Assembly (NCBI RefSeq): GCF_009914755.1
Contig: NC_060941.1
Strand: one strand, 5' to 3'
Origin: the human T2T-CHM13v2.0 reference genome, Homo sapiens
DNA length: 64,000 nt
In this document: positions 35,865 through 63,308 of the stretch, in pieces
How the letters are laid out: each line of letters opens with the position of its first letter
Numbering within the stretch: position 1 is the stretch's first letter
Notes under the pieces: model-generated
What the model was told of the DNA's origin: nothing
What the model saw: the letters and a program-made list of their open reading frames with translations, nothing else
Database searches by the model: none
Program-made: the position numbers and the translations under genes

Positions 35865-36743
35865 TGTTTTCAAACTTACATAAATGGAATTATTATATGT
35901 TTTATTCCATAGCTTTTTTTCCCTCTCAACATTATGCTCCTGAGATTCACACTATTTACTATATGTAGCTGTAATGTGCTTGCTTTCGTTCCTGGTAATA
36001 TTTTGGTTTATGAACATACCGTGATTTATTTTCCATTTGCCCCTTTTATTTTTGCTAGTGCCAACAGCACTGATTGGAGTATTCTTGTGTATGTTTCCTG
36101 CTGTGAACGTGCAAGGGTAACTGTGGCTCTCTCTAGGAGTGTGACTGCTAGGTCATCGGCCATGCACACCTTTGCTGCAACAAGATGACAATGGTATTTT
36201 CCAAGGTGGGAGGACAAATTCACACTCCCTGCAGCAGTGTGTGCATGTCAGTTGCTCCACATCTTCACTAATATGAATACTTTTCAAACTAGTGTTTATT
36301 AAATTTGGAGCTAGAGAGACAGGGAGACAAGGAGACAGGGAGGGAGGAAGTTAGGAAGGGAGGAAGTGAGGAAGCAAGGAAGAAAGAAAGAGAGGAATAT
36401 TTTATTCTTTCAAAGCCTGAACCCAGCACTGGCTACTCATAGTCAATAAATATGTGCTGGTTTGATGAATTTCTTACAATGTCTGCCTAGATAGCTCATT
36501 GCAGCCATGAAATGGAGTCAATCCCTTTGTGACTGAAGGGGAAAGGTGGAGGGAGACAAGAGAAGGCCATCTGACTTCCCAGAACATTTAGTAAACAACA
36601 CAATTCACAATCAAAAAGGGATTATAAGTAAAATAGCATACGTACATTTAAAATGAAGTTAGACCCCCAGATCTGGAATCAGTTTCTGAGGTTGCAGAGA
36701 CTTTTGCCTGTTTTGGGTCCCTGTGCCCAATCTGTTCACATCT

Positions 36744-36864
36744 CTAGCACTTTTCTTGCTGGGTCCAGACCTTGCCGGGGTTTAATTCCAGTTGCTGATG
36801 TATTCCTGGACCCACACCTTGCTGGAGTTGGCATAGACCTTTCCAGTCTCCTCTGTGGAGGAAG
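36744..36864 (-). pseudogene. Psi-B exon 3 (CC chemokine C-terminal exon)
   Basis: ccatTG (acceptor lost)|C TTC CTC c ACA GAG GAG ACT GGA AAG GTC TAT GCC AAC TCC AGC AAG GTG TGG GTC CAG GAA TAC ATC AGC AAC; reads FL/TEETGKVYANSSKVWVQEYISN/LELN. 3' boundary uncertain. Confidence 0.85.
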
Positions 36865-37006
36865 CAATGGTAAGAGAGAGAAGTGAATAAAGAAGAGACA
36901 ATCCTGCAGCAGAATGCCTGTAACCTCCCCATGTTTCTCTACCCTGGGGATCTCAGAGACAGTTTATTTTCAGAGCCAGGAGCATCCCGCAAATCCCAAG
37001 ACCTAG

Positions 37007-37351
<345 letters not shown>

Positions 37352-37638
37352 CCAAGACCTAGATTTTTTAAAAAATTGTTCATGAGTTTCTTCTCGGGTT
37401 GACTTCCCTCTGCTATCCTTTCCTTTCCTCTTCTCTGCATGAAGGTGGCTCTTCCTTGGCTCCCTACAGGCTGTGGGTCCATGCAGAAAACACCACAGGG
37501 ACCTATCCCTATGTCCTGCATGTCTAATGAGTTCCTGGAGGTCTGGGTCTCCCAGGTTCCCCCTCCATCTCTTGAGTCTTGGGGGCTGTGTGTCCCTCCA
37601 TGTCTCTCCCCTACGAGTGGCAAGAGGGCTACACCTAC

Positions 37639-37716
37639 ATGCTGAGAGCATCCACTGCTGGTCTCTAATGCAAATTTGTGAATAACCTACTGGAAAATGT
37701 TTGAGAAGCAGCAAGA
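37639..37716 (-). pseudogene. Psi-B exon 2, 3' part
   Basis: SCCFSNIFQ*VIHKFALETSSGCSQ then CAT|GTAGGTG donor, the same junction as CCL23 exon 3. Confidence 0.85.
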
Positions 37717-42748: not shown

Positions 42749-45254
42749 TTGTATGTATCAGTAGTTGGGTCCTTTTTCTTGCTGAGTAGTACTCCATTGT
42801 ATAGATGTATAGTCAGTTCTGCTATCATGCATATTTATAAAATGCAAATTATTTTCAATTTAATTTAAAAAAAAAGGCTGACTAGGAATGTTGGATGCGA
42901 GTTCTTTTCAGAAAGAAGATCGAAGTTACCTGTTAATGGTCATGATCCAAATGGAAAACTGAGGGAAGACAGCCAGGACCTGTCAGAGAACCCATGGGAA
43001 GAAGCTGGGGCACAAGAAAGGAAAGCAGCAAGAGTCTGGCAGACATTGACCTATGAGGAACTTGGGGTCCCATGGAAAAGGTCAGTGGGAATGCTTCTCT
43101 GCTCCCTTCATCCCTGCAATAAACTGCTGACCACTAAGCTGTTGGGGAGCCCCTCTGCCCTCACAACCACAGACAATTCTGTTGGTGGCAATTTGGTAAC
43201 TTTCCAGGGTGAGAGAATTGGCTGGCCAGCTTGTGCTGGTGGATCTGCACTCCACTCAGGTCCTACCTGAAACAGCAGATGCCATACTTGTTGTTCACCC
43301 ATTATGGGCCACTGCCCTGCCAGGGAACCTCGGCCCTTATGTTGCATTACCAGATCCCCTGCAAACATACTCCAGAACTCACTCTGAATTTGGCACCCAC
43401 AGGGGATCAGTGGGTCCCTGGAGAGCTGTGAGTTCCCCTGAGATCTAGCCCTCAGTGTGGGCATCCCTAGGGGAGGATGCAGTGCAGCCTGTCAAAGCCT
43501 CCCTTGGGACAAAGGAAATGTGGAAATGGTGTTGATCACTGAAGGGGGAGGCACTGGTGGCCGAGAATAGGTGTGGAGAGGGATCATTTCCTTCTCCCTC
43601 ATCCACTGTTGCAGACACAGCAGAGGCTTTCCCCACTGGAGGCTGGTGCAAGCACACGTGGAGACAGCCTTTCCAGGTGCCACTTGCAGAAGCTGCACCC
43701 CCACTGAAAATAAGCCTGTGCTACCTGGACATGCACAAAAGTCAGGGCCCATCTCCCTCTTCCTACACTGAGAAGCAGGCAATGGAGGGCAGACAAGTCA
43801 CAGAGCTGGACCGGGGGAAGAGGCTTTGCCCTGAGCCCCTTTCAGTGGTAGCCACCAGAGGGGTTTTTCTGCAGAACTCAGTCACACTGCAGCCAGGAGC
43901 CAAAGGACAATGTCTGTATGAACTGAATATTGCAGGCCCTGTGGCAGGGGCATGATAGGGAAGCAGATTGTGTTCCTGCCTGCCCAGGGTGATGAGTTGG
44001 TGCTGTGACCCTCCCAACCTCACCTGTCCCTACCCCAAGACTTCAGCATATCCCAACACGAACTCCCCAACCACCCTCCATCTGGCAGGTGCCTCTCCTT
44101 ATCACTTGGCTACTGAGGGTGAGTTGGCTCTTATTAAGTGCCACTTACTAGACTGGAGACTGAACTGCTCCACCAAATAAAAACCCGCTATCAGAAGGGC
44201 ATAGTGCTAGTGTATGAGATAAGCTTCCTGAGACTTCCACACTCAGCCCCACAGAAGATAGTGAGTCAGCTCATACTCCCAATACATTGCTAAAACAAGC
44301 AACATTTTAGAAAAACACTGCACAAAAGCTGTCTATAACCAAGGAACCTATACAGAGCCTTGGCCCCCTGAAAGCACCAAGAAATGAAGCAAATAATCAC
44401 AGCATACATGACAGTCATACCCTCAAGGGAAAAAAAAGATAAAATTCCCATCCAAATAATAGCACATTCAAAAATAAAAAGCAACAGTACTTTCAGATGA
44501 GGAGGAATCGGTTCAAGAACTCTGGTGGTAGAAACAGACAGAATGTTTTGACAGCCCCAAAGGCTCTCACTAGCTTTCTAACAATGGATCTCAACCAAAA
44601 TGAGGATTCTGAAATAACAGATAAAGAATGCAAAATATGGATTGTAAGGAAGCTCAATGATATCCAAGAGAAAGTTGAAACTCAACAGAAAGAAACCAGG
44701 AAAACCATTTAGGATATGAAAGACAGCTATATTAAAACAAACAAACAGAACTTCTGGAAATGAAAAAATTTAGTAAAGGAATTTCAAAATATAGTGGAAA
44801 GCTTTAGCAATAGACTAGACCAAGAAGAAGAAAGAATTTTGGAGCTTGAAGACTGATCTTTTGAGTTAATCCAGTCAGAAAAATATAAAAGATAATTTTA
44901 AAAAAGGAACAAAGCCTTCAAGAAATATGGGATTAGGTAGAGCAACCACACCTACAACTTATAGGCATTCCTGAGTGAGAAAGAGAAAAAGTAAGCAATT
45001 TGGAAAACATACTCAAGGGAATAATTCAGGAACATTTCTCTTATTGCTAGAAAGTTAGACATCAAGATACAAGAAATTCAGAGAAAAACTGTGAGATTCT
45101 ATACAAGATGAACATCAACAAGGCACATAGTCATGAGACTATCCAAATACAGTGCTAAAGAAAAACGCTTGAAGGTAGCTAGAAAGAAGGATCAAGTCAC
45201 CTATAAAGGAAGTCCAATCAGACTAACAGCAGACTTCTCAGCAGAACCTTATAA

Positions 45255-52603: not shown

Positions 52604-52956
52604 TTCGTTTTTCTTAAGAAAGCTTGACTTATTTTTTAAAAAAGTAAAGATGCATATGAAGGAAGGTCTTCCTTTTTGGTTCATATAAAGTGCTGATTTT
52701 ATTTTAGGGAATATAAATTATAGTTTAATTTATAACATCATTACTTCAGTTTTGGCTTTCTAGGCTGCTATCTCCATTGTAAGGCCTGACAACATTACCA
52801 GGTAGCATGTCTTCTCTTTTTTCTGTTGTTTCTTACATTTCCAGTTTTCCTCAACTTCCCCCCTCATCCCACCAAACCAATATTCCTAATGTTCAAGACA
52901 GCAATCAACATAATAGCTAGAATTCCATGGCTTACTTTTAAATAAAGGAAAGTATT

Positions 52957-52962
52957 TTTATT
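52957..52962 (-). terminator. Candidate polyA signal of psi-A
   Basis: AATAAA on minus strand ~360 nt after exon 3. Confidence 0.45.
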
Positions 52963-53319
52963 ATATTAGAAACATTACAACATAGTGCAAAGATCAAATA
53001 TTCATTGAAAAATGCATATCCAGAAATTCTGTGGTTGATGAATTTGGTCGAATATCTAGAGAGAGGATTTAGCACAAACATTCAGCACCATCTAGAATCA
53101 CTGTGTACTATGTGGTTTCTTAGAGAAAACATTCAATAAAAACAATTTAAAATTGGAAATACACAATAAAAGTGAAATAAATTAAAATTTAAGTTTGGTT
53201 TGGTTATGGGGGGACTAGACCATAAAGGAGGTAGCTTCTGGGGTTGTAAGTGCTATTCTTCTGGCTCAGCTCCCTGTTCCCCAATCTACTGATGGATTTA
53301 ATTTTTTTTTCTGGGCTAT

Positions 53320-53406
53320 TCAGATTTAGCTCTGGGTTTTGATGTATTCCTGGACTCAGCATCTCTGGGGTTGACACAGACCAGCTGACCTCTTTTAGTC
53401 TGAAAG
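53320..53406 (-). pseudogene. Psi-A exon 3
   Basis: ctttccccatAG|C TTT CAG ACT AAA AGA GGT CAG CTG GTC TGT GTC AAC CCC AGA GAT; reads FQTKRGQLVCVNPRDA/*VQEYI/NPELN. Confidence 0.92.
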
Positions 53407-53816
53407 CTATGGGGAAAGGCAGAAGATTAAGAAGAATCTAGCCAGCTGGGAAATTTCTGGACCCATTGTGGCCCCTCCATCCCTCTTTCTGACTTGTCCT
53501 CTCAGAGTCTCTCTCTTTCTCAGCAATCAGCTCCCATGCCTTAGGGTTCCAGTTTCCCAGAGTATCTCATGAGAATCTCTTCAGTCAGCACCCTCCTGCC
53601 ATCATGTCCTCCCTCTCTCTTCCTCTGCCCCTGGCCAGCCTCTCCTGTCTCCCTGATGACCCTGGACTGTTCAGAAAATACCTCAGAGACTCTTCTGTGC
53701 CTGTGAGGGGCCCAGAGAGCTGGGTATTCCCAGGATGGTGTCCAATCCACCTCCTTACACCCATGGGGGCTGCTCCAGTGTCTCCCCCAGGAATGGGAAG
53801 GAGGAATGGCCCTTAT

Positions 53817-53931
53817 ACAACACTGGGCTTAGAGCACAGGCTGCAGGTTTTATAACAGTCTGCTGCAAAATCTTGAGGGATCTTCTAGGGGGTATAAGGG
53901 AAGCAGCAGGAGGCTGTGGAGTCAACACCAG
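53817..53931 (-). pseudogene. Psi-A exon 2 (115 nt)
   Basis: cttctcctacAG acceptor; SGVDSTASCCFPYTP*KIPQDFAADCYKTCSLCSKPSVV; TAG 53885-53887; donor GTAAG mutated to ATAAG. Confidence 0.95.
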
Positions 53932-54645
53932 CTGTAGGAGAAGGCACAGCAAGAGACTGAGTTATTGAGAAGCCATAGAAAACCAACTTCCCCTCTCCAT
54001 GCCCCCTGCTCTCCCTTTAACCCAAAAAAGATCAGAAGGAACTAGAAGGAACTAGAAGGACACAGCATTTCTTAAGTTGGGGAATTCAGATGAACTGGGA
54101 CACACATGTCTTTCCTACAAATTACTTTGCCTTTGTCTATATCACTCCATTTTTATTTTTATTTTTACTCTTTTAGGGATTTAGCTCACTAAAATGTCTC
54201 ATCTTCCAGTTCATCTCTTTTGGGAGGGAAATTTGTCTGTCCTGTGATATCGCAATACTAAAGAGATGAAGCTGGGATATGTCACATATCACCAATAGGA
54301 CAGGCCTCTACGGAATAGCTGACATGAATTTAGGCTTACATGCACCAGTGGGAAATAAATAGAGCTGCCAGTTACTCTGTGAATTGGGCCTCAATTATCT
54401 TATCAGGAAAGTGGAAATTAGCATCTCCTGCTCCCACTCTCTGAACCACTTGGTGGAATGTGATAGCCTGGACCCTTTTGAAAAAAAGACTTTTTGAAGA
54501 GAATGGCCAGGGCGATTTGAATTCCTGTTTTGAGTGCTCCATTTTCAACTCTGGTGATCTTTATTTTCAGGGCATGTTTGGTGTGGTCTCACCTGGGGCC
54601 AAAAAGGGTAACATCTGAATAAGGCAGAAGAGATGACACTCTCCC

Positions 54646-54723
54646 ACAGTACCAAGGAGGTCTGGGAGCAGAGGACCACAATAGGGGGAGGAGAATGGTG
54701 GAGACAGTTGAAAATGCCTGTGT
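54646..54723 (-). pseudogene. Psi-A exon 1
   Basis: tgcctgcccagcatc (identical to CCL18 60232-60246), then ACA in place of ATG; QAFSTVSTILLP/IVVLCSQTSLVL; donor GTGAG mutated to GGGAG. Confidence 0.88.
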
Positions 54724-54836
54724 GATGCTGGGCAGGCAAGGGATTCTGGGCTTGAGTGTCAGCATAGTTAAGACAAGCAAGCTTGCGTATTTGAAGCTGG
54801 CACCTCCTTCTTGGGTTCAAGCCATTGCCCCTTCTC

Positions 54837-54842
54837 TTTATA
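54837..54842 (-). promoter_or_regulatory. Psi-A TATA box (CTATAAAGAG context)
   Basis: Same context as the CCL18 TATA in this window (ctataaa...agaaggagg). Confidence 0.75.
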
Positions 54843-55002
54843 GAGAGTTCCATTTTGTGGGAAGATAGAAACTGGGGATGATTGGAGGAAAATATTTTAA
54901 TCAGAATGTTAGTGTCATGTTGGGAGTTACATAATTCAGGGGTTGCCAACACCCTTTGGTCAACACAGAAGTTCCAAGTATATGCAAGAATAGCTTACCT
55001 TC

Positions 55003-55320
<318 letters not shown>

Positions 55321-55619
55321 TCAGCTTCTCCATCGAATGGGGACACTTCTGAGAAAATTGCTTGCTCAGTCCATTCAAGTTGTTCTGAAGAAATAATTTC
55401 CTCAGTGAGTGGGTGATCGGGACTTGGTATGGCCACAGGCTCCCTCACAAAAATGGATATATCTGTGAACCATGGGCTGCCTATTTCTCTCCTGTAGAGT
55501 GGAAGGTGCTGATGCTCTTTCACAACTGCTCTAACTATACGGATGTGATATAACTGATGATGTCACAATAGCCTGTCATAAGTAACCTTCACTATCTGGA
55601 TTGTAAGATCCTCTTCTAA

Positions 55620-59556: not shown

Positions 59557-60144
59557 AATGGTCTTACCAATGAGTTGCCAAGGTCCATTGGGTATTCATG
59601 TGGCAAAAAATAAATCTTGAATCCTTCTTCACACCAAACATAAAAATCAACTCCAGATGGATTGTAATTTAAATATTAATGCTAAAACAATAAAGCTTCT
59701 ACAAGTTAACATAGGAGGATATCTTTATTGCCTTAGGATAGGGGAAGATTTCTCATTAGATCACGAAAGGCCTAACTGTATATAAAAGATTGAAGCATGT
59801 GACTCTCTTAAAAGGAAAAACAATTGTGAAAATCCATTAAAGCATTCTGCTCTATCAAAGGAGGCTGTGACCACTCATTTCTGAGAAATATCTGTCATGT
59901 GAAAACATAATCACATGATTATGCATAATCCTAAGCATAATCCCTGGGTGCTTCCAACTCCTGGTCACCCATCTGGAGATACAACTTCTCCATAAGCCCC
60001 TCAATCAACAAGTGAACCACTCGTTTGTGTACCCTAAACCTTTCAAGTAACCATAGGCAACCCTGGGCTGAGAACTCACATGACACCACCATAGTTAAAA
60101 TGTCTTGCATCAGCACCTCCAATGTTCCCATGGTCCAGTCTGCC

Positions 60145-60151
60145 TATAAAA
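60145..60151 (+). promoter_or_regulatory. CCL18: CCL18 TATA box
   Basis: TATAAAA ~100 nt upstream of ATG. Confidence 0.8.
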
Positions 60152-60246
60152 AGGAGAGACAACAGCTCATACCCCAGAAGGAGGCCAGGAGTTGTGAGTT
60201 TCCAAGCCCCAGCTCACTCTGACCACTTCTCTGCCTGCCCAGCATC

Positions 60247-60313
60247 ATGAAGGGCCTTGCAGCTGCCCTCCTTGTCCTCGTCTGCACCATGGCCCTCTGC
60301 TCCTGTGCACAAG
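60247..60313 (+). CDS. CCL18: CCL18 exon 1 (MKGLAAALLVLVCTMALCSCAQ); remaining exons lie beyond the window
   Basis: gcatcATG start, CCL18 signal peptide, phase-1 GTGAGT donor. Confidence 0.97.
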
Positions 60314-60962
60314 GTGAGTCTGTCATCCATGTGCTTTGATGGCTCCCTGGGCAGAAGTCAGGCGACATCTTCCAAGTGCTGTGGCCTGAAAACCCTCGTG
60401 TGAAATTAGGGATCCTCAAATGGGGTTTCAAAGTGACATCATTGTTTTCTTCAAGAAGGTTGAAAAGCAGTCTATTGATCTGGGCAGCAGGATGGGAGTC
60501 AGAGAAGTTTTATCCTACTGAGATAAATGAGATGGTTGAAGTCTAATTCATTGGGTTATTAGCGTGAGGTAGAATCTAGGTCTATTTAGTTCTCACTGGT
60601 GCTGGTAAGTTTTACAATGACCTCAGCAGTCTCCTAGAGTTCAACCCCTTGGGTAACATAAAAGATGTCTATACTTTTCTCAGCTATCTTGTGATTTAAT
60701 CTATTAGAAAAAAAATTCCCCAAGGAGAGTTAGGAGAAGGGCATAGACTATTCAGGGAGCTTGATTCCCTGTAGCGTAAAATAAAGACTAAAATGGAGAG
60801 ACAAGACTAGGGAAATTAAGGAGAAACAAACAAAAAGCCAGATTATTTCCAGCTTTCTTTTCCTGCAGGCCTCAACTCTGAGCTATGCTGTCTCCCTTTG
60901 CTCCTTTGTGACCCGCCTGGGCTTCTTCTCCTGAGCAACTCCTGTTGTCTTTGTTCCCTCAG

Positions 60963-61064
60963 ATAAGATTCACACCCCATGCATCTGCTGCTTCTCCTAC
61001 ACCTCCCAGTAGATGCACTGCAAATTTTCGGTTGCCTATTATAAAACCAGTGGTGAGCGGTCTT
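60963..61064 (+). pseudogene. CCL18 intron-1 pseudoexon (MIP-1alpha-like exon 2)
   Basis: ttgttccctcAG|AT AAG...; DKIHTPCICCFSYTSQ*MHCKFSVAYYKTSGERS; TAG 61010-61012; truncated by L1M-like sequence. Consistent with the known gene-fusion origin of CCL18. Confidence 0.9.
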
Positions 61065-63308
61065 AAAATTAAAATCCTATGATATATTTTAATTACTTTA
61101 TACAGTCAATATTCATTTAGTTTTCATCACATATTTGCTCTTCCTGTCCTCTTAAATTCTTCTGCATCTCTGAGCTCCATCTGCAATCACTTTTCTTCTG
61201 CCTAAAGGAATCCTCTTAGTATTTTCATTACTGTGGGTCTTCTGATAGTGAAGTCTCCATTTTTTGCTTGCTTGGAAATGTCTTCATTTTACCTTCATTT
61301 TACCTTCACACTGGATATGAAAGTCCATAGTAGCTCCCACCTCCTACTTGTGCTTACGTGCTCCTTGTCCCTTGTCCCATGGGTTGTCTCCTCCATATGC
61401 CCTATTTGCAGACAGAAGGACTGATGCTGACATTACGCCAGGGTAAGAGCACCAGCTGCTGGAGTCAGCAAATTTGCAGTGGATATGGAGAAACATAAGA
61501 GAGGCAGGAGACAATGGGGTGCCTTAACCGTGAGGGAACCAGCATCCAGAACCTGAGAAAAACCAAGTAAATTTCTTCCACTCTTGAAAAGGGACCAGCA
61601 AGAAGTTGATGAAGACCTCACTGCTCAGGACTGTGAAGTAGGGCACAAAAGGAACTAAGGAAGTCAGGCATTCATCCTTGACTTTGAGTGTTTCTTTTAA
61701 ATCTCTGCCTCTGTCTTACTCTCACTCCCTTGCTCCCTCTTCAGGGAGTATAGCTCTTGGAATGGCTGGCCTTTGTTCCATCTCTTTTGGGTAGGAACTT
61801 CATTCAGTCTACAGAGACTTTTCCCAGCAAGAGACCATCATCTCTAAATCGCTGTAGGAGTAGAGCTTCTCAGGAGAACTGAAGGAACTCTGCCACTTCC
61901 TCACCCTAGGAACCAACTAGACCCAGAGTTTGCATCTTGTGAATGACTGAGTTAGGCCCCAGTTTTCCCAACTAACAATGGGTCCTAGCCCTCTCCTGCC
62001 TTTCAGATCTAGGTTAGATATCTAAGTCCTCAGAAAATAGCCCAGAACATTTTGAAACCTTTTGTGAAGTTCTTTGATTTTACTTAGAGAATCTTAATCC
62101 ACAAGAATTAAGTGATATGGCTTAAATGTCTGTCCAGAGCATAGGGAAACAACTCTAAAATGAAGAAAGGACAAGGGTCAAGAGAGTCTCACGGGACAGA
62201 TGAGACTTGTGAGCTGAGGGCCATGGAGAGGAGATGGAGGGCACCAAAGAAGACCTGTTCAGTGTTGGGCAGGCAGAGGAGTGTAGGCAATGCCAAAACA
62301 GGACTGGGCACTCACTGCCACCTACATCGTTCTGGGGTCCAAGCCATGTCCTCAACCCTTTACAGGCAACTCTAAACCATGAGGAGCTGGAGACTGGGGA
62401 TGACCAGAGGGGAAGATGTTAAGTGCATGGTGTCTTGCTCTGAGTTGTACATGTTGGGGTACCTTGGGTCCCCCAGGGGTTCAGGATGTACAAGAGCAAC
62501 TCAACTGCTCACTTGTTGGGGCTGAATGTGCAGAAATGTTTTTGACAGTGAGAGAGGGTGAGATGTTAGTGTTGAAGTCATACGTACAAGGAGAGATCTT
62601 CAGATTAACACTTCCACCACAGAGCAGCTCTCTAATGCTGTGCTGCAGCTCCTCTGACCACATGGTGTGATGTAAATGGTCATGCCACAGCGTTCTGGGC
62701 AGCACAAGTCACATTTAAACCACACCCTGGGTGAAAAGGACCATTACATCGTGTTAATCGGAGTGCTTCTAAGAAATGCTTAACTCATGAGGAGGACGTC
62801 AAGAATTGGTGTTACCAAGAAGCCAAGCTTAGCTGGTACCTTCTATCAAGAACAGATCTATTTGTGAATGGCACCATGGTCATTTCCTCCTATGGAACAG
62901 ATATTTCTAGTGTTGTGTTTCCATTGCACAGAAGTGACATGTAAGATGATACCCCAGAATCTTAAGTAGTTCGAGTTGTGTTTGATCCAGACCCAAATGG
63001 ACAGAATGGAATAGGGAAAGTCTGGACTATGGGAATGACAAGAATGATGGGGCCAGGCTTTTAACTGCTGTTTGATTCATTGAACATTCATAGCTCCCTA
63101 CAATATGCCATCATTGGGTTTGACTCTGGGTAATAGACATGAATATGCATGACATATGGGGTGTCTATATAGATCAGGAGCCTTAGATGCCCTTATTTTT
63201 TCACCCAGGAAGCCCACAGCTAGGAAAATATCCTACAGAAATAACCTCACTTATGGAGAAAGTTTTTTGCATACAGATGTTTGGCACAACTTATAACAAT
63301 GAAAAATT

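What the first reader, a model, noticed from the sequence alone, without database searches (positions are those of the whole stretch)
52957..54842. Psi-A: complete unprocessed CCL3-like pseudogene
All parts are collinear on the minus strand: TATA (54837-54842), 5'UTR sharing tgcctgcccagcatc with CCL18, exon 1 (54646-54723), ~0.71 kb intron, 115-nt exon 2, ~0.41 kb intron, exon 3, AU-rich UTR, AATAAA. Lesions: ATG>ACA, +2 frameshift in exon 1, both donors lost (GGGAG, ATAAG), TAG in exon 2, frameshift plus W>stop in exon 3. Reconstruction GVDSTASCCFPYTP*KIPQDFAADCYKTCSLCSKPSVVFQTKRGQLVCVNPRDA*VQEYI keeps all four canonical cysteines and aligns to CCL3 without gaps through exon 2.
Basis: partly seen in the sequence, partly recalled or inferred. 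Interest (0 to 1): 0.85.

Follow-up and report, generated by a model that had tools for sequence, protein, structure and literature searches.

The report
Old broken CCL3-like gene beside CCL18
This is a real but long-dead copy of the CCL3 (MIP-1 alpha) chemokine gene lying just upstream of CCL18; it still has its introns, and such a CCL3 pseudogene next to CCL18 has already been reported, so it is an ordinary relic.

Summary
On the minus strand, window 52931-55005 aligns with the CCL3 gene from about 170 bp upstream of the TATA box to the AATAAA signal. It is one collinear blastn match of 1980 columns, E 1.6e-56. Exon and intron sizes match: exon 2 is 115 nt in both, intron 1 is 712 vs 688 nt, intron 2 is 410 vs 420 nt. 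The lesions are there: ATG>ACA, a frameshift in exon 1, TAG in exon 2, donor 2 GT>AT, and a 1-bp deletion plus TGG>TGA in exon 3.

It belongs to the CCL3 lineage, not the CCL4 lineage. CCL3 and CCL4 themselves align only in their exons.

It is not new. [quoted passage not shown]

What I add is tentative:
- Non-coding sites group Psi-A with two other minus-strand relics, at 36.4-37.7 kb and 76.9-78.7 kb (support 99/98).
- AU tests reject it as sister of CCL3 or of the CCL18 3' unit.
- The three relics share no disabling lesion.
- Their common stem looks constrained, which suggests a once-working paralogue that was copied and then lost three times.

Interest is low.

The parts
54812..55000 (-). 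Homologue of the CCL3 proximal promoter (CCL3 -170..-1), with TATAAA at 54837-54842. Homology stops where an Alu (54998-55321) begins.
   Evidence: 169 aligned sites, 63.9% identity, K2P 0.53. CTATAAAGAG is shared. The Alu is seen.
54724..54811 (-). Homologue of the 5'UTR, including the 15-mer TGCCTGCCCAGCATC (54724-54738) that is shared with CCL18 exon 1.
   Evidence: 85 sites, 67.1% identity; 2 matches in the window against 0.01 expected; nearly the same motif in CCL18 unit 2 and in the inverted fragment.
54644..54723 (-). Homologue of the exon 1 coding part (signal peptide). The start codon is ACA (54721-54723). Length is 78-80 nt against 73 in CCL3, so the frame is lost.
   Evidence: 53.4% identity, the worst-preserved exon.
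53932..54643 (-). Intron 1 homologue, 712 nt (CCL3: 688 nt). The acceptor CTCCTACAG is kept.
   Evidence: 648 aligned sites, 53.5% identity, K2P 0.75.
53817..53931 (-). Exon 2 homologue, 115 nt with no gaps against CCL3. It holds the CC motif and the third Cys. TAG lies at 53885-53887.
   Evidence: 67.8% identity. PDB CCL4 3.5e-9, CCL3 6.4e-9. PF00048 17.4 bits, profile positions 2-34; tblastn with CCL3, E 1.8e-10.
53407..53816 (-). Intron 2 homologue, 410 nt (CCL3: 420 nt). The donor is ATAAGG instead of GTAAGT. The acceptor CCCCATAG is kept.
   Evidence: 404 aligned sites, 54.2% identity, K2P 0.74.
53320..53406 (-). Homologue of the exon 3 coding part. It holds the fourth Cys, a 1-bp deletion, TGA at 53356-53358 in place of the conserved Trp codon, and two further small deletions.
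   Evidence: 87 sites, 70.1% identity. PF00048 15.9 bits, profile positions 36-55.
52931..53319 (-). 3'UTR homologue. It has a 21-nt AU-rich block (53175-53195) identical to CCL3, and AATAAA at 52957-52962.
   Evidence: 379 aligned sites, 52.5% identity.

Best explanation
Psi-A is a dead, unprocessed pseudogene. It is the remains of a DNA-level duplication that copied a whole CCL3-type transcription unit of about 2.1 kb, with promoter, three exons, two introns and 3'UTR, into the chemokine cluster. It now sits 5.3 kb upstream of CCL18 and head-to-head with it. It cannot make a chemokine: the start codon, the reading frame of exons 1 and 3, one codon in exon 2 and the exon 2 splice donor are all broken. 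It most likely does nothing today and drifts neutrally. That the sequence is homologous and broken is shown. That it has no function, and the history below, are inferred. The duplication is old: about 0.76 substitutions per non-coding site separate it from CCL3. That points to the order of 100 million years and well before the primates. In the 3' region it groups with two other dead minus-strand copies rather than directly with CCL3 or CCL18.
For: Homology:
- One collinear blastn match to the CCL3 locus: 1980 columns, 58.0% identity, E 1.6e-56. The CCL18 units matched at 898 columns (E 2.4e-45) and 956 columns (E 1.6e-13).
- The global alignment shows matching landmarks and exon/intron sizes.
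- The lesions are read directly from the sequence.

Chemokine identity:
- The PDB search returned chemokines only.
- The two exon peptides hit complementary halves of Pfam PF00048.

CCL3 lineage rather than CCL4:
- Psi-A aligns with CCL3 through introns and UTRs.
- CCL3 and CCL4 align only in exons 2 and 3 (182 and 98 columns).
- Psi-A matches CCL4 only in 145 and 132 columns.

Relaxed constraint:
- The exon/non-coding branch-length ratio is 0.73 for Psi-A (bootstrap 2.5-97.5%: 0.42-1.15). It is 0.24 for CCL3, 0.43 for the CCL18 3' unit and 0.38 for CCL4 (100 replicates).

Copy number and annotation:
- The DNA search of the whole assembly returned one place, Psi-A itself. That first look is insensitive at about 60% identity.
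- The hub table has no RefSeq gene or transcript here.

In print:
- The Figure 4 legend of PMC3749542 mentions the two flanking CCL3-ps genes. Its text says human and mouse carry functional or inactivated extra CCL3 copies (passages seen, figure not seen).
Against: - Nothing in the sequence argues for a working gene.
- No expression, chromatin or population data were available, so transcription or a regulatory role is not excluded.
- The promoter and 5'UTR are closer to CCL3 (K2P 0.53 and 0.44) than the introns are (0.75). Constraint on the CCL3 side alone can explain this.
- The Psi-A exon/non-coding ratio is under 1 in 88 of 100 replicates. It may therefore have stayed functional for part of its history.
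- Distances this large are close to saturation and depend on the alignment, so the age is rough.
- I could not see the 2003 paper or the 2013 figure. That their upstream CCL3-ps is this very locus is inferred from its position.
Confidence: 0.92

Rival explanations
1. The relic is still used as a non-coding element. Its kept TATA promoter could drive a non-coding RNA, or the region could act as a regulatory element for the head-to-head neighbour CCL18.
For: - TATAAAGAG and several promoter blocks are kept. Promoter K2P is 0.53 and 5'UTR 0.44, against 0.75 in the introns.
- The CCL18 start lies only about 5.3 kb away on the other strand (hub table).
- The related relic at 36.4-37.7 kb is overlapped by the first exon of lncRNA LOC105371746 (hub table).
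Against: - RefSeq lists no transcript or functional element at 52.9-55.0 kb (hub table).
- Constraint on CCL3 alone would keep these segments more alike.
- No data here show transcription.
Confidence: 0.1
2. It is a CCL4-like or CCL18-derived pseudogene rather than a CCL3-like one.
For: - The exon 2 peptide scores marginally better against CCL4 (3.5e-9) than against CCL3 (6.4e-9).
- It shares an exact 15-mer with CCL18 exon 1.
- Its highest 3' identity is to the CCL18 3' unit, 61%.
Against: - Only the exons align with CCL4, as is true of CCL3 against CCL4.
- The AU test rejects Psi-A as sister of the CCL18 3' unit (p 0.0011).
- Other units carry nearly the same 15-mer.
- CCL18 is itself built from CCL3-like units.
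Confidence: 0.04
3. The similarity is chance, or an artefact of repeats or low complexity.
For: None found.
Against: - E-values of 1e-56 (DNA) and 1e-9 (protein).
- Collinearity over eight segments, with splice acceptors and exon lengths kept.
- Inside 52.9-55.0 kb the self-comparison found no repeat family. Only the Alus at its flanks matched elsewhere.
Confidence: 0.01

Closest known systems
CCL3 (MIP-1 alpha / LD78 alpha) gene, 29 kb away on the same strand
   Same: Same three-exon layout, exon 2 length and intron sizes. Same TATA context, AU-rich 3'UTR block and polyadenylation signal. Alignable end to end.
   Different: About 58% identity overall. Start codon, frame, one codon and one donor are destroyed. 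In the 3' region Psi-A is not CCL3's sister (AU p 0.0012).
The 'CCL3-ps' genes on each side of CCL18 (Nomiyama, Egami, Tanase et al. 2003, as cited in the Figure 4 legend of PMC3749542)
   Same: A CCL3 pseudogene flanking CCL18. Psi-A lies upstream of CCL18, and a second relic lies downstream at 76.9-78.7 kb.
   Different: I could not read the 2003 paper (not held) or see the figure. Identity of the locus, and whether its lesions were described, are therefore unverified.
The CCL3-like units fused into CCL18 (Tasaki et al. 1999, as cited in PMC3749542 and PMC7663205)
   Same: Same ancestry and similar age. Unit 1 (60025-61063) and unit 2 (65135-67614) carry dead exons like those of Psi-A.
   Different: Those units lie on the plus strand and together still form a working gene. 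Psi-A is a separate, complete, wholly dead unit on the minus strand.
CCL3P1 (formerly CCL3L2), the named human CCL3 pseudogene
   Same: A CCL3-derived pseudogene in 17q12.
   Different: CCL3P1 lies between CCL4L1 and CCL3L1 in the copy-number-variable unit. Psi-A lies between CCL23 and CCL18, and the whole-assembly DNA search returned only Psi-A itself.

Membership tests
CC chemokine gene (Pfam PF00048, IL8-like small cytokines) | Match to the family profile | tested here: inconclusive
   the exon 2 peptide scores 17.4 bits (profile 2-34) and the exon 3 peptide 15.9 bits (profile 36-55). Each is below the 21.3-bit cut-off on its own. They are complementary and in the right order. I did not submit a joined read-through.
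CC chemokine gene (Pfam PF00048, IL8-like small cytokines) | Adjacent Cys-Cys plus two further Cys at the conserved spacing | tested here: met
   CC and the third Cys in exon 2 and the fourth Cys in exon 3 all align with those of CCL3 and CCL4.
CC chemokine gene (Pfam PF00048, IL8-like small cytokines) | Open reading frame with start codon and signal peptide | tested here: not met
   ACA replaces ATG, exons 1 and 3 are frameshifted, and there are TAG and TGA stops. It is therefore a pseudogene, not a member gene.
Unprocessed (duplicated) pseudogene | Introns and promoter of the parent gene are retained, and there is no poly(A) tract as in a retrocopy | tested here: met
   both introns (712 and 410 nt) and 170 bp of promoter align with CCL3; the sequence continues past AATAAA without an A run.
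Unprocessed (duplicated) pseudogene | Disabling lesions | tested here: met
   at least six lesions (lost ATG, exon 1 frame, TAG, donor 2, exon 3 deletion, TGA).
Unprocessed (duplicated) pseudogene | No expression of a protein product | not testable with these tools
   No expression data were available. RefSeq has no transcript here (hub table).
CCL3 lineage (as against CCL4) | Homology extends into introns and UTRs | tested here: met
   1980 columns with CCL3, against 145 and 132 exon-only columns with CCL4. CCL3 against CCL4 aligns in exons only.
CCL3 lineage (as against CCL4) | Sister of CCL3 itself | tested here: not met
   the AU test rejects Psi-A+CCL3 (p 0.0012). Psi-A groups with two other relics (100/97, and 99/98 on non-coding columns). 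The 5' region tree is unresolved.

The most novel reading that the evidence does not exclude
Psi-A, the relic at 76.9-78.7 kb and the 5'-less relic at 36.4-37.7 kb may be remains of a separate CCL3-like paralogue. On this reading the paralogue was a working chemokine gene, was copied to three minus-strand sites, and was then lost three times independently in the human lineage. These would then be something more than three random decayed CCL3 copies.

Support:
- The three form a clade with 100/97 support, and 99/98 on 597 non-coding columns.
- Their common stem has an exon/non-coding rate ratio of 0.09, below 1 in 100 of 100 bootstraps. Their terminal branches have ratios of 0.73-1.01.
- Their stop codons lie at different codons, and I saw no shared lesion.

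Caveats:
- The group was named after seeing the tree.
- Identity is about 55-60%, so alignment error and attraction between long branches could create the clade.
- Only 204 exon columns were available.

An intact orthologue in some other mammal would make this a nameable lost human chemokine.
Probability: 0.4. Interest if true: 0.3.

Novelty: already known. Interest (0 to 1): 0.12.

Why it matters
It matters little on its own. It is one of several decayed CCL3-type units that record how the 17q12 MIP chemokine cluster, including CCL18, was built by repeated local duplication. Its practical value is for annotation: RefSeq on T2T-CHM13 has no row for it, so reads or variants here could be misassigned to CCL3 or CCL18. 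It also serves as a neutral marker for dating the duplications. If the 'lost paralogue' reading holds, it would add one more case of lineage-specific birth and death in a fast-evolving immune gene family. That pattern is already well known for chemokines.

Tried and rejected
- the first PDB search used the wrong reading frame and found nothing. I repeated it in the correct frame.
- a term format was rejected. I re-asked with author names.
- Nomiyama 2003, Schutyser 2005 and Zlotnik 2006 are not held. The primary description of the flanking CCL3-ps genes was therefore not read.
- PMC3568907 mentions neither CCL18 nor CCL3-ps.
- the supplements of PMC3749542 were closed. They may list pseudogene sequences or coordinates that bear on whether this exact locus was described. 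I did not use paper reading again.
- searches for 'CCL3 pseudogene'+CCL18 and CCL18+'pseudo-exon' found 0 papers. Searches found only PMC3749542.
- I tested whether Psi-A and CCL18 unit 1 form a head-to-head pair that was duplicated to give the inverted fragment and unit 2. The spacers share only Alus, and the 5' tree is unresolved (all three inner branches under 80). The idea is neither supported nor excluded.
- I looked for a 5' part of the 36.4-37.7 kb relic. The best E was 0.08, so none was found.
- weak tblastn hits at 43082-43159 and 43765-43809 (E 0.7-1) are taken as chance.
- The exon-only tree (204 columns) does not recover the clade of the three relics.

Full report
**What is there**

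Read on the minus strand, window 55005-52931 is collinear with the human CCL3 gene. I fetched CCL3 from the same assembly, 29 kb further along (L002), and mapped its exons from the printed sequence:
- exon 1 ends 158 nt after the annotated start, with ATG at 86;
- intron 1 is 688 nt;
- exon 2 is 115 nt;
- intron 2 is 420 nt;
- the exon 3 stop codon is at 1470-1472.

The spliced translation agrees with the CCL3 chains returned from PDB.

A local blastn of the Psi-A region gave these matches:

| Locus | Match |
|---|---|
| CCL3 | one match, 1980 columns, 58.0% identity, E 1.6e-56 |
| CCL18 | 898 columns (E 2.4e-45) and 956 columns (E 1.6e-13), plus smaller ones |
| CCL4 | two exon-sized matches, 145 and 132 columns, E 2.2e-11 and 2.2e-8 |
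| CCL23 | one match, 85 columns, E 0.001 |

The global alignment and its breakdown by segment:

| Segment | Psi-A coordinates | Identity to CCL3 | Note |
|---|---|---|---|
| Promoter | 55000-54812 | 63.9% | |
| 5'UTR | 54811-54724 | 67.1% | |
| Exon 1 coding part | 54723-54644 | 53.4% | |
| Intron 1 | 54643-53932 | 53.5% | 712 nt |
| Exon 2 | 53931-53817 | 67.8% | 115 nt, no gaps |
| Intron 2 | 53816-53407 | 54.2% | 410 nt |
| Exon 3 coding part | 53406-53320 | 70.1% | |
| 3'UTR | 53319-52931 | 52.5% | |

Shared landmarks are CTATAAAGAG, both splice acceptors, a 21-nt AU-rich block and the AATAAA signal.

**The lesions**

- ATG>ACA at 54723-54721;
- an exon 1 coding length of 78-80 nt instead of 73;
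- CGG>TAG at 53887-53885;
- donor 2 GTAAGT>ATAAGG;
- a 1-bp deletion and TGG>TGA (53358-53356) in exon 3, with two more small deletions before the old stop.

The claim that donor 1 is lost depends on the alignment of a poorly conserved stretch.

The four canonical cysteine codons remain. The exon 2 peptide, with X at the stop, finds only chemokines in PDB: CCL4 3.5e-9, CCL3 6.4e-9, CCL14 9e-7, CCL23 4e-4, CCL18 6e-4, and 44 distinct sequences at E<=1. The exon 2 and exon 3 peptides hit positions 2-34 and 36-55 of Pfam PF00048, at 17.4 and 15.9 bits. Each is below the 21.3-bit cut-off on its own.

**Which lineage**

The slightly better protein score to CCL4 is not meaningful. Psi-A aligns with CCL3 through introns and UTRs, whereas CCL3 and CCL4 align with each other only in exons 2 and 3. 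So Psi-A split from the CCL3 line well after CCL4 did.

The 15-mer before the start codon is shared exactly with CCL18 exon 1. It is nearly the same in the second CCL18 unit and in an inverted fragment. It is therefore probably the older state of the family, not a special link to CCL18.

**Surroundings**

tblastn with CCL3 and blastn with the CCL3 unit, run over the window plus 23.5 kb beyond it, show seven CCL3-type units or fragments:

| Position (window numbering) | Strand | What |
|---|---|---|
| 36401-37716 | - | 3' part only, with an Alu in intron 2 |
| 52931-55005 | - | Psi-A, full length |
| 60025-61063 | + | CCL18 unit 1: promoter, CCL18 exon 1, a dead exon 2 |
| 62008-62495 | - | inverted 5' fragment inside CCL18 intron 1, E 7.7e-26 |
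| 65135-67614 | + | CCL18 unit 2: dead exon 1, then CCL18 exons 2 and 3 |
| 76909-78680 | - | a dead unit downstream of CCL18 |
| 83900-86400 | - | CCL3 |

The spacers between units share only Alus. The DNA search of the whole assembly returned Psi-A alone. That first look did not even return CCL3, so it excludes only close copies.

**Relationships and age**

Pairwise distances are large and nearly star-like (K2P 0.43-0.85).

The 5' tree is unresolved.

In the 3' region (exon 2 to proximal 3'UTR, 825 columns), Psi-A groups with the 76.9 kb and 36.4 kb relics at 100/97 support. On 597 non-coding columns alone the support is 99/98. AU tests reject Psi-A+CCL3 (p 0.0012) and Psi-A+CCL18 unit 2 (p 0.0011). 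These groups were chosen after seeing the tree, and identities of 55-60% leave room for alignment error and attraction between long branches.

With the topology fixed, the ratio of exon to non-coding branch length (100 bootstraps) is:

| Branch | Ratio (bootstrap 2.5-97.5%) |
|---|---|
| CCL3 | 0.24 |
| CCL18 unit 2 | 0.43 |
| CCL4 | 0.38 |
| Psi-A | 0.73 (0.42-1.15) |
| 76.9 kb relic | 1.01 |
| 36.4 kb relic | 0.79 |
| Stem shared by the three relics | 0.09 (below 1 in 100 of 100) |

The three relics have stop codons at different codons of exon 2, and I saw no shared lesion.

The simplest reading is that a working CCL3-like paralogue was copied and each copy then decayed. Psi-A is the best preserved of the three.

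The non-coding path from Psi-A to CCL3 is 0.76 substitutions per site. Using mammalian neutral rates recalled from the literature (about 2e-9 per site per year), that is on the order of 100-200 million years. This is a rough inference only.

**How it works**

Most likely it does nothing. It cannot encode a chemokine, and RefSeq lists no transcript or functional element there (hub table). A residual promoter or regulatory role is not excluded, because no expression data were available.

**Novelty**

[quoted passage not shown] Reference 31 is Nomiyama, Egami, Tanase et al. 2003. Its text adds that most species, including human, carry functional or inactivated extra CCL3 copies, and that CCL18 arose by fusion of two CCL3-like genes. 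PMC7663205 repeats the last point (passages seen).

Psi-A upstream and the 76.9 kb relic downstream fit that description. I could not read the 2003 paper or the supplements. So identity of the locus rests on position, and I cannot say whether the lesions, the 36.4 kb relic or the inverted fragment were described. Searches for further mentions found nothing else.

**Verdict**

It is an ordinary, ancient and already reported pseudogene, of low interest.

Noticed in passing
window 36401-37716 (minus strand): A third CCL3-like relic. It has an exon 2-like piece at 37642-37716 (SCCFS... with a stop; tblastn E 0.72 alone), intron 2 and exon 3/3'UTR homology at 36401-36956 and 37389-37604 (E 6e-10 to 9e-15), and an Alu (37004-37384) in intron 2. 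No 5' part was found. The first exon of lncRNA LOC105371746 (36646-36732) lies inside its 3'UTR homologue. Whether this relic is in print is unknown.
   Followed up: partly
window 62008-62495 (minus strand), inside CCL18 intron 1: An inverted 5' fragment of a CCL3-like unit: TATA-like box, 5'UTR, dead exon 1 and the start of intron 1. E is 7.7e-26 against the CCL3 5' region. CCL18 intron 1 therefore holds remains of a third CCL3-like copy besides the two fused units. I could not check whether Tasaki et al. 1999 noted it.
   Followed up: partly
window 60863-61063 (plus strand), and 65682-65909 (beyond the window end, locus L004 6684-6911): The dead exon 2 of CCL18 unit 1 (CICCFSYTSQ* ...) and the dead exon 1 of unit 2. 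These are the skipped exons expected from the published fusion model of CCL18.
   Followed up: partly
76909-78680 in window numbering (outside the window; loci L005/L006): A downstream CCL3-like relic on the minus strand between CCL18 and CCL3. It has promoter homology at 78255-78680, exon 2 to 3'UTR homology at 76909-77607, and a stop inside CCFS*. It is probably the second CCL3-ps of the 2013 figure legend.
   Followed up: partly
window 54998-55321: An Alu abuts the upstream end of the promoter homology. Homology with the CCL3 upstream region stops at about 55005.
   Followed up: no
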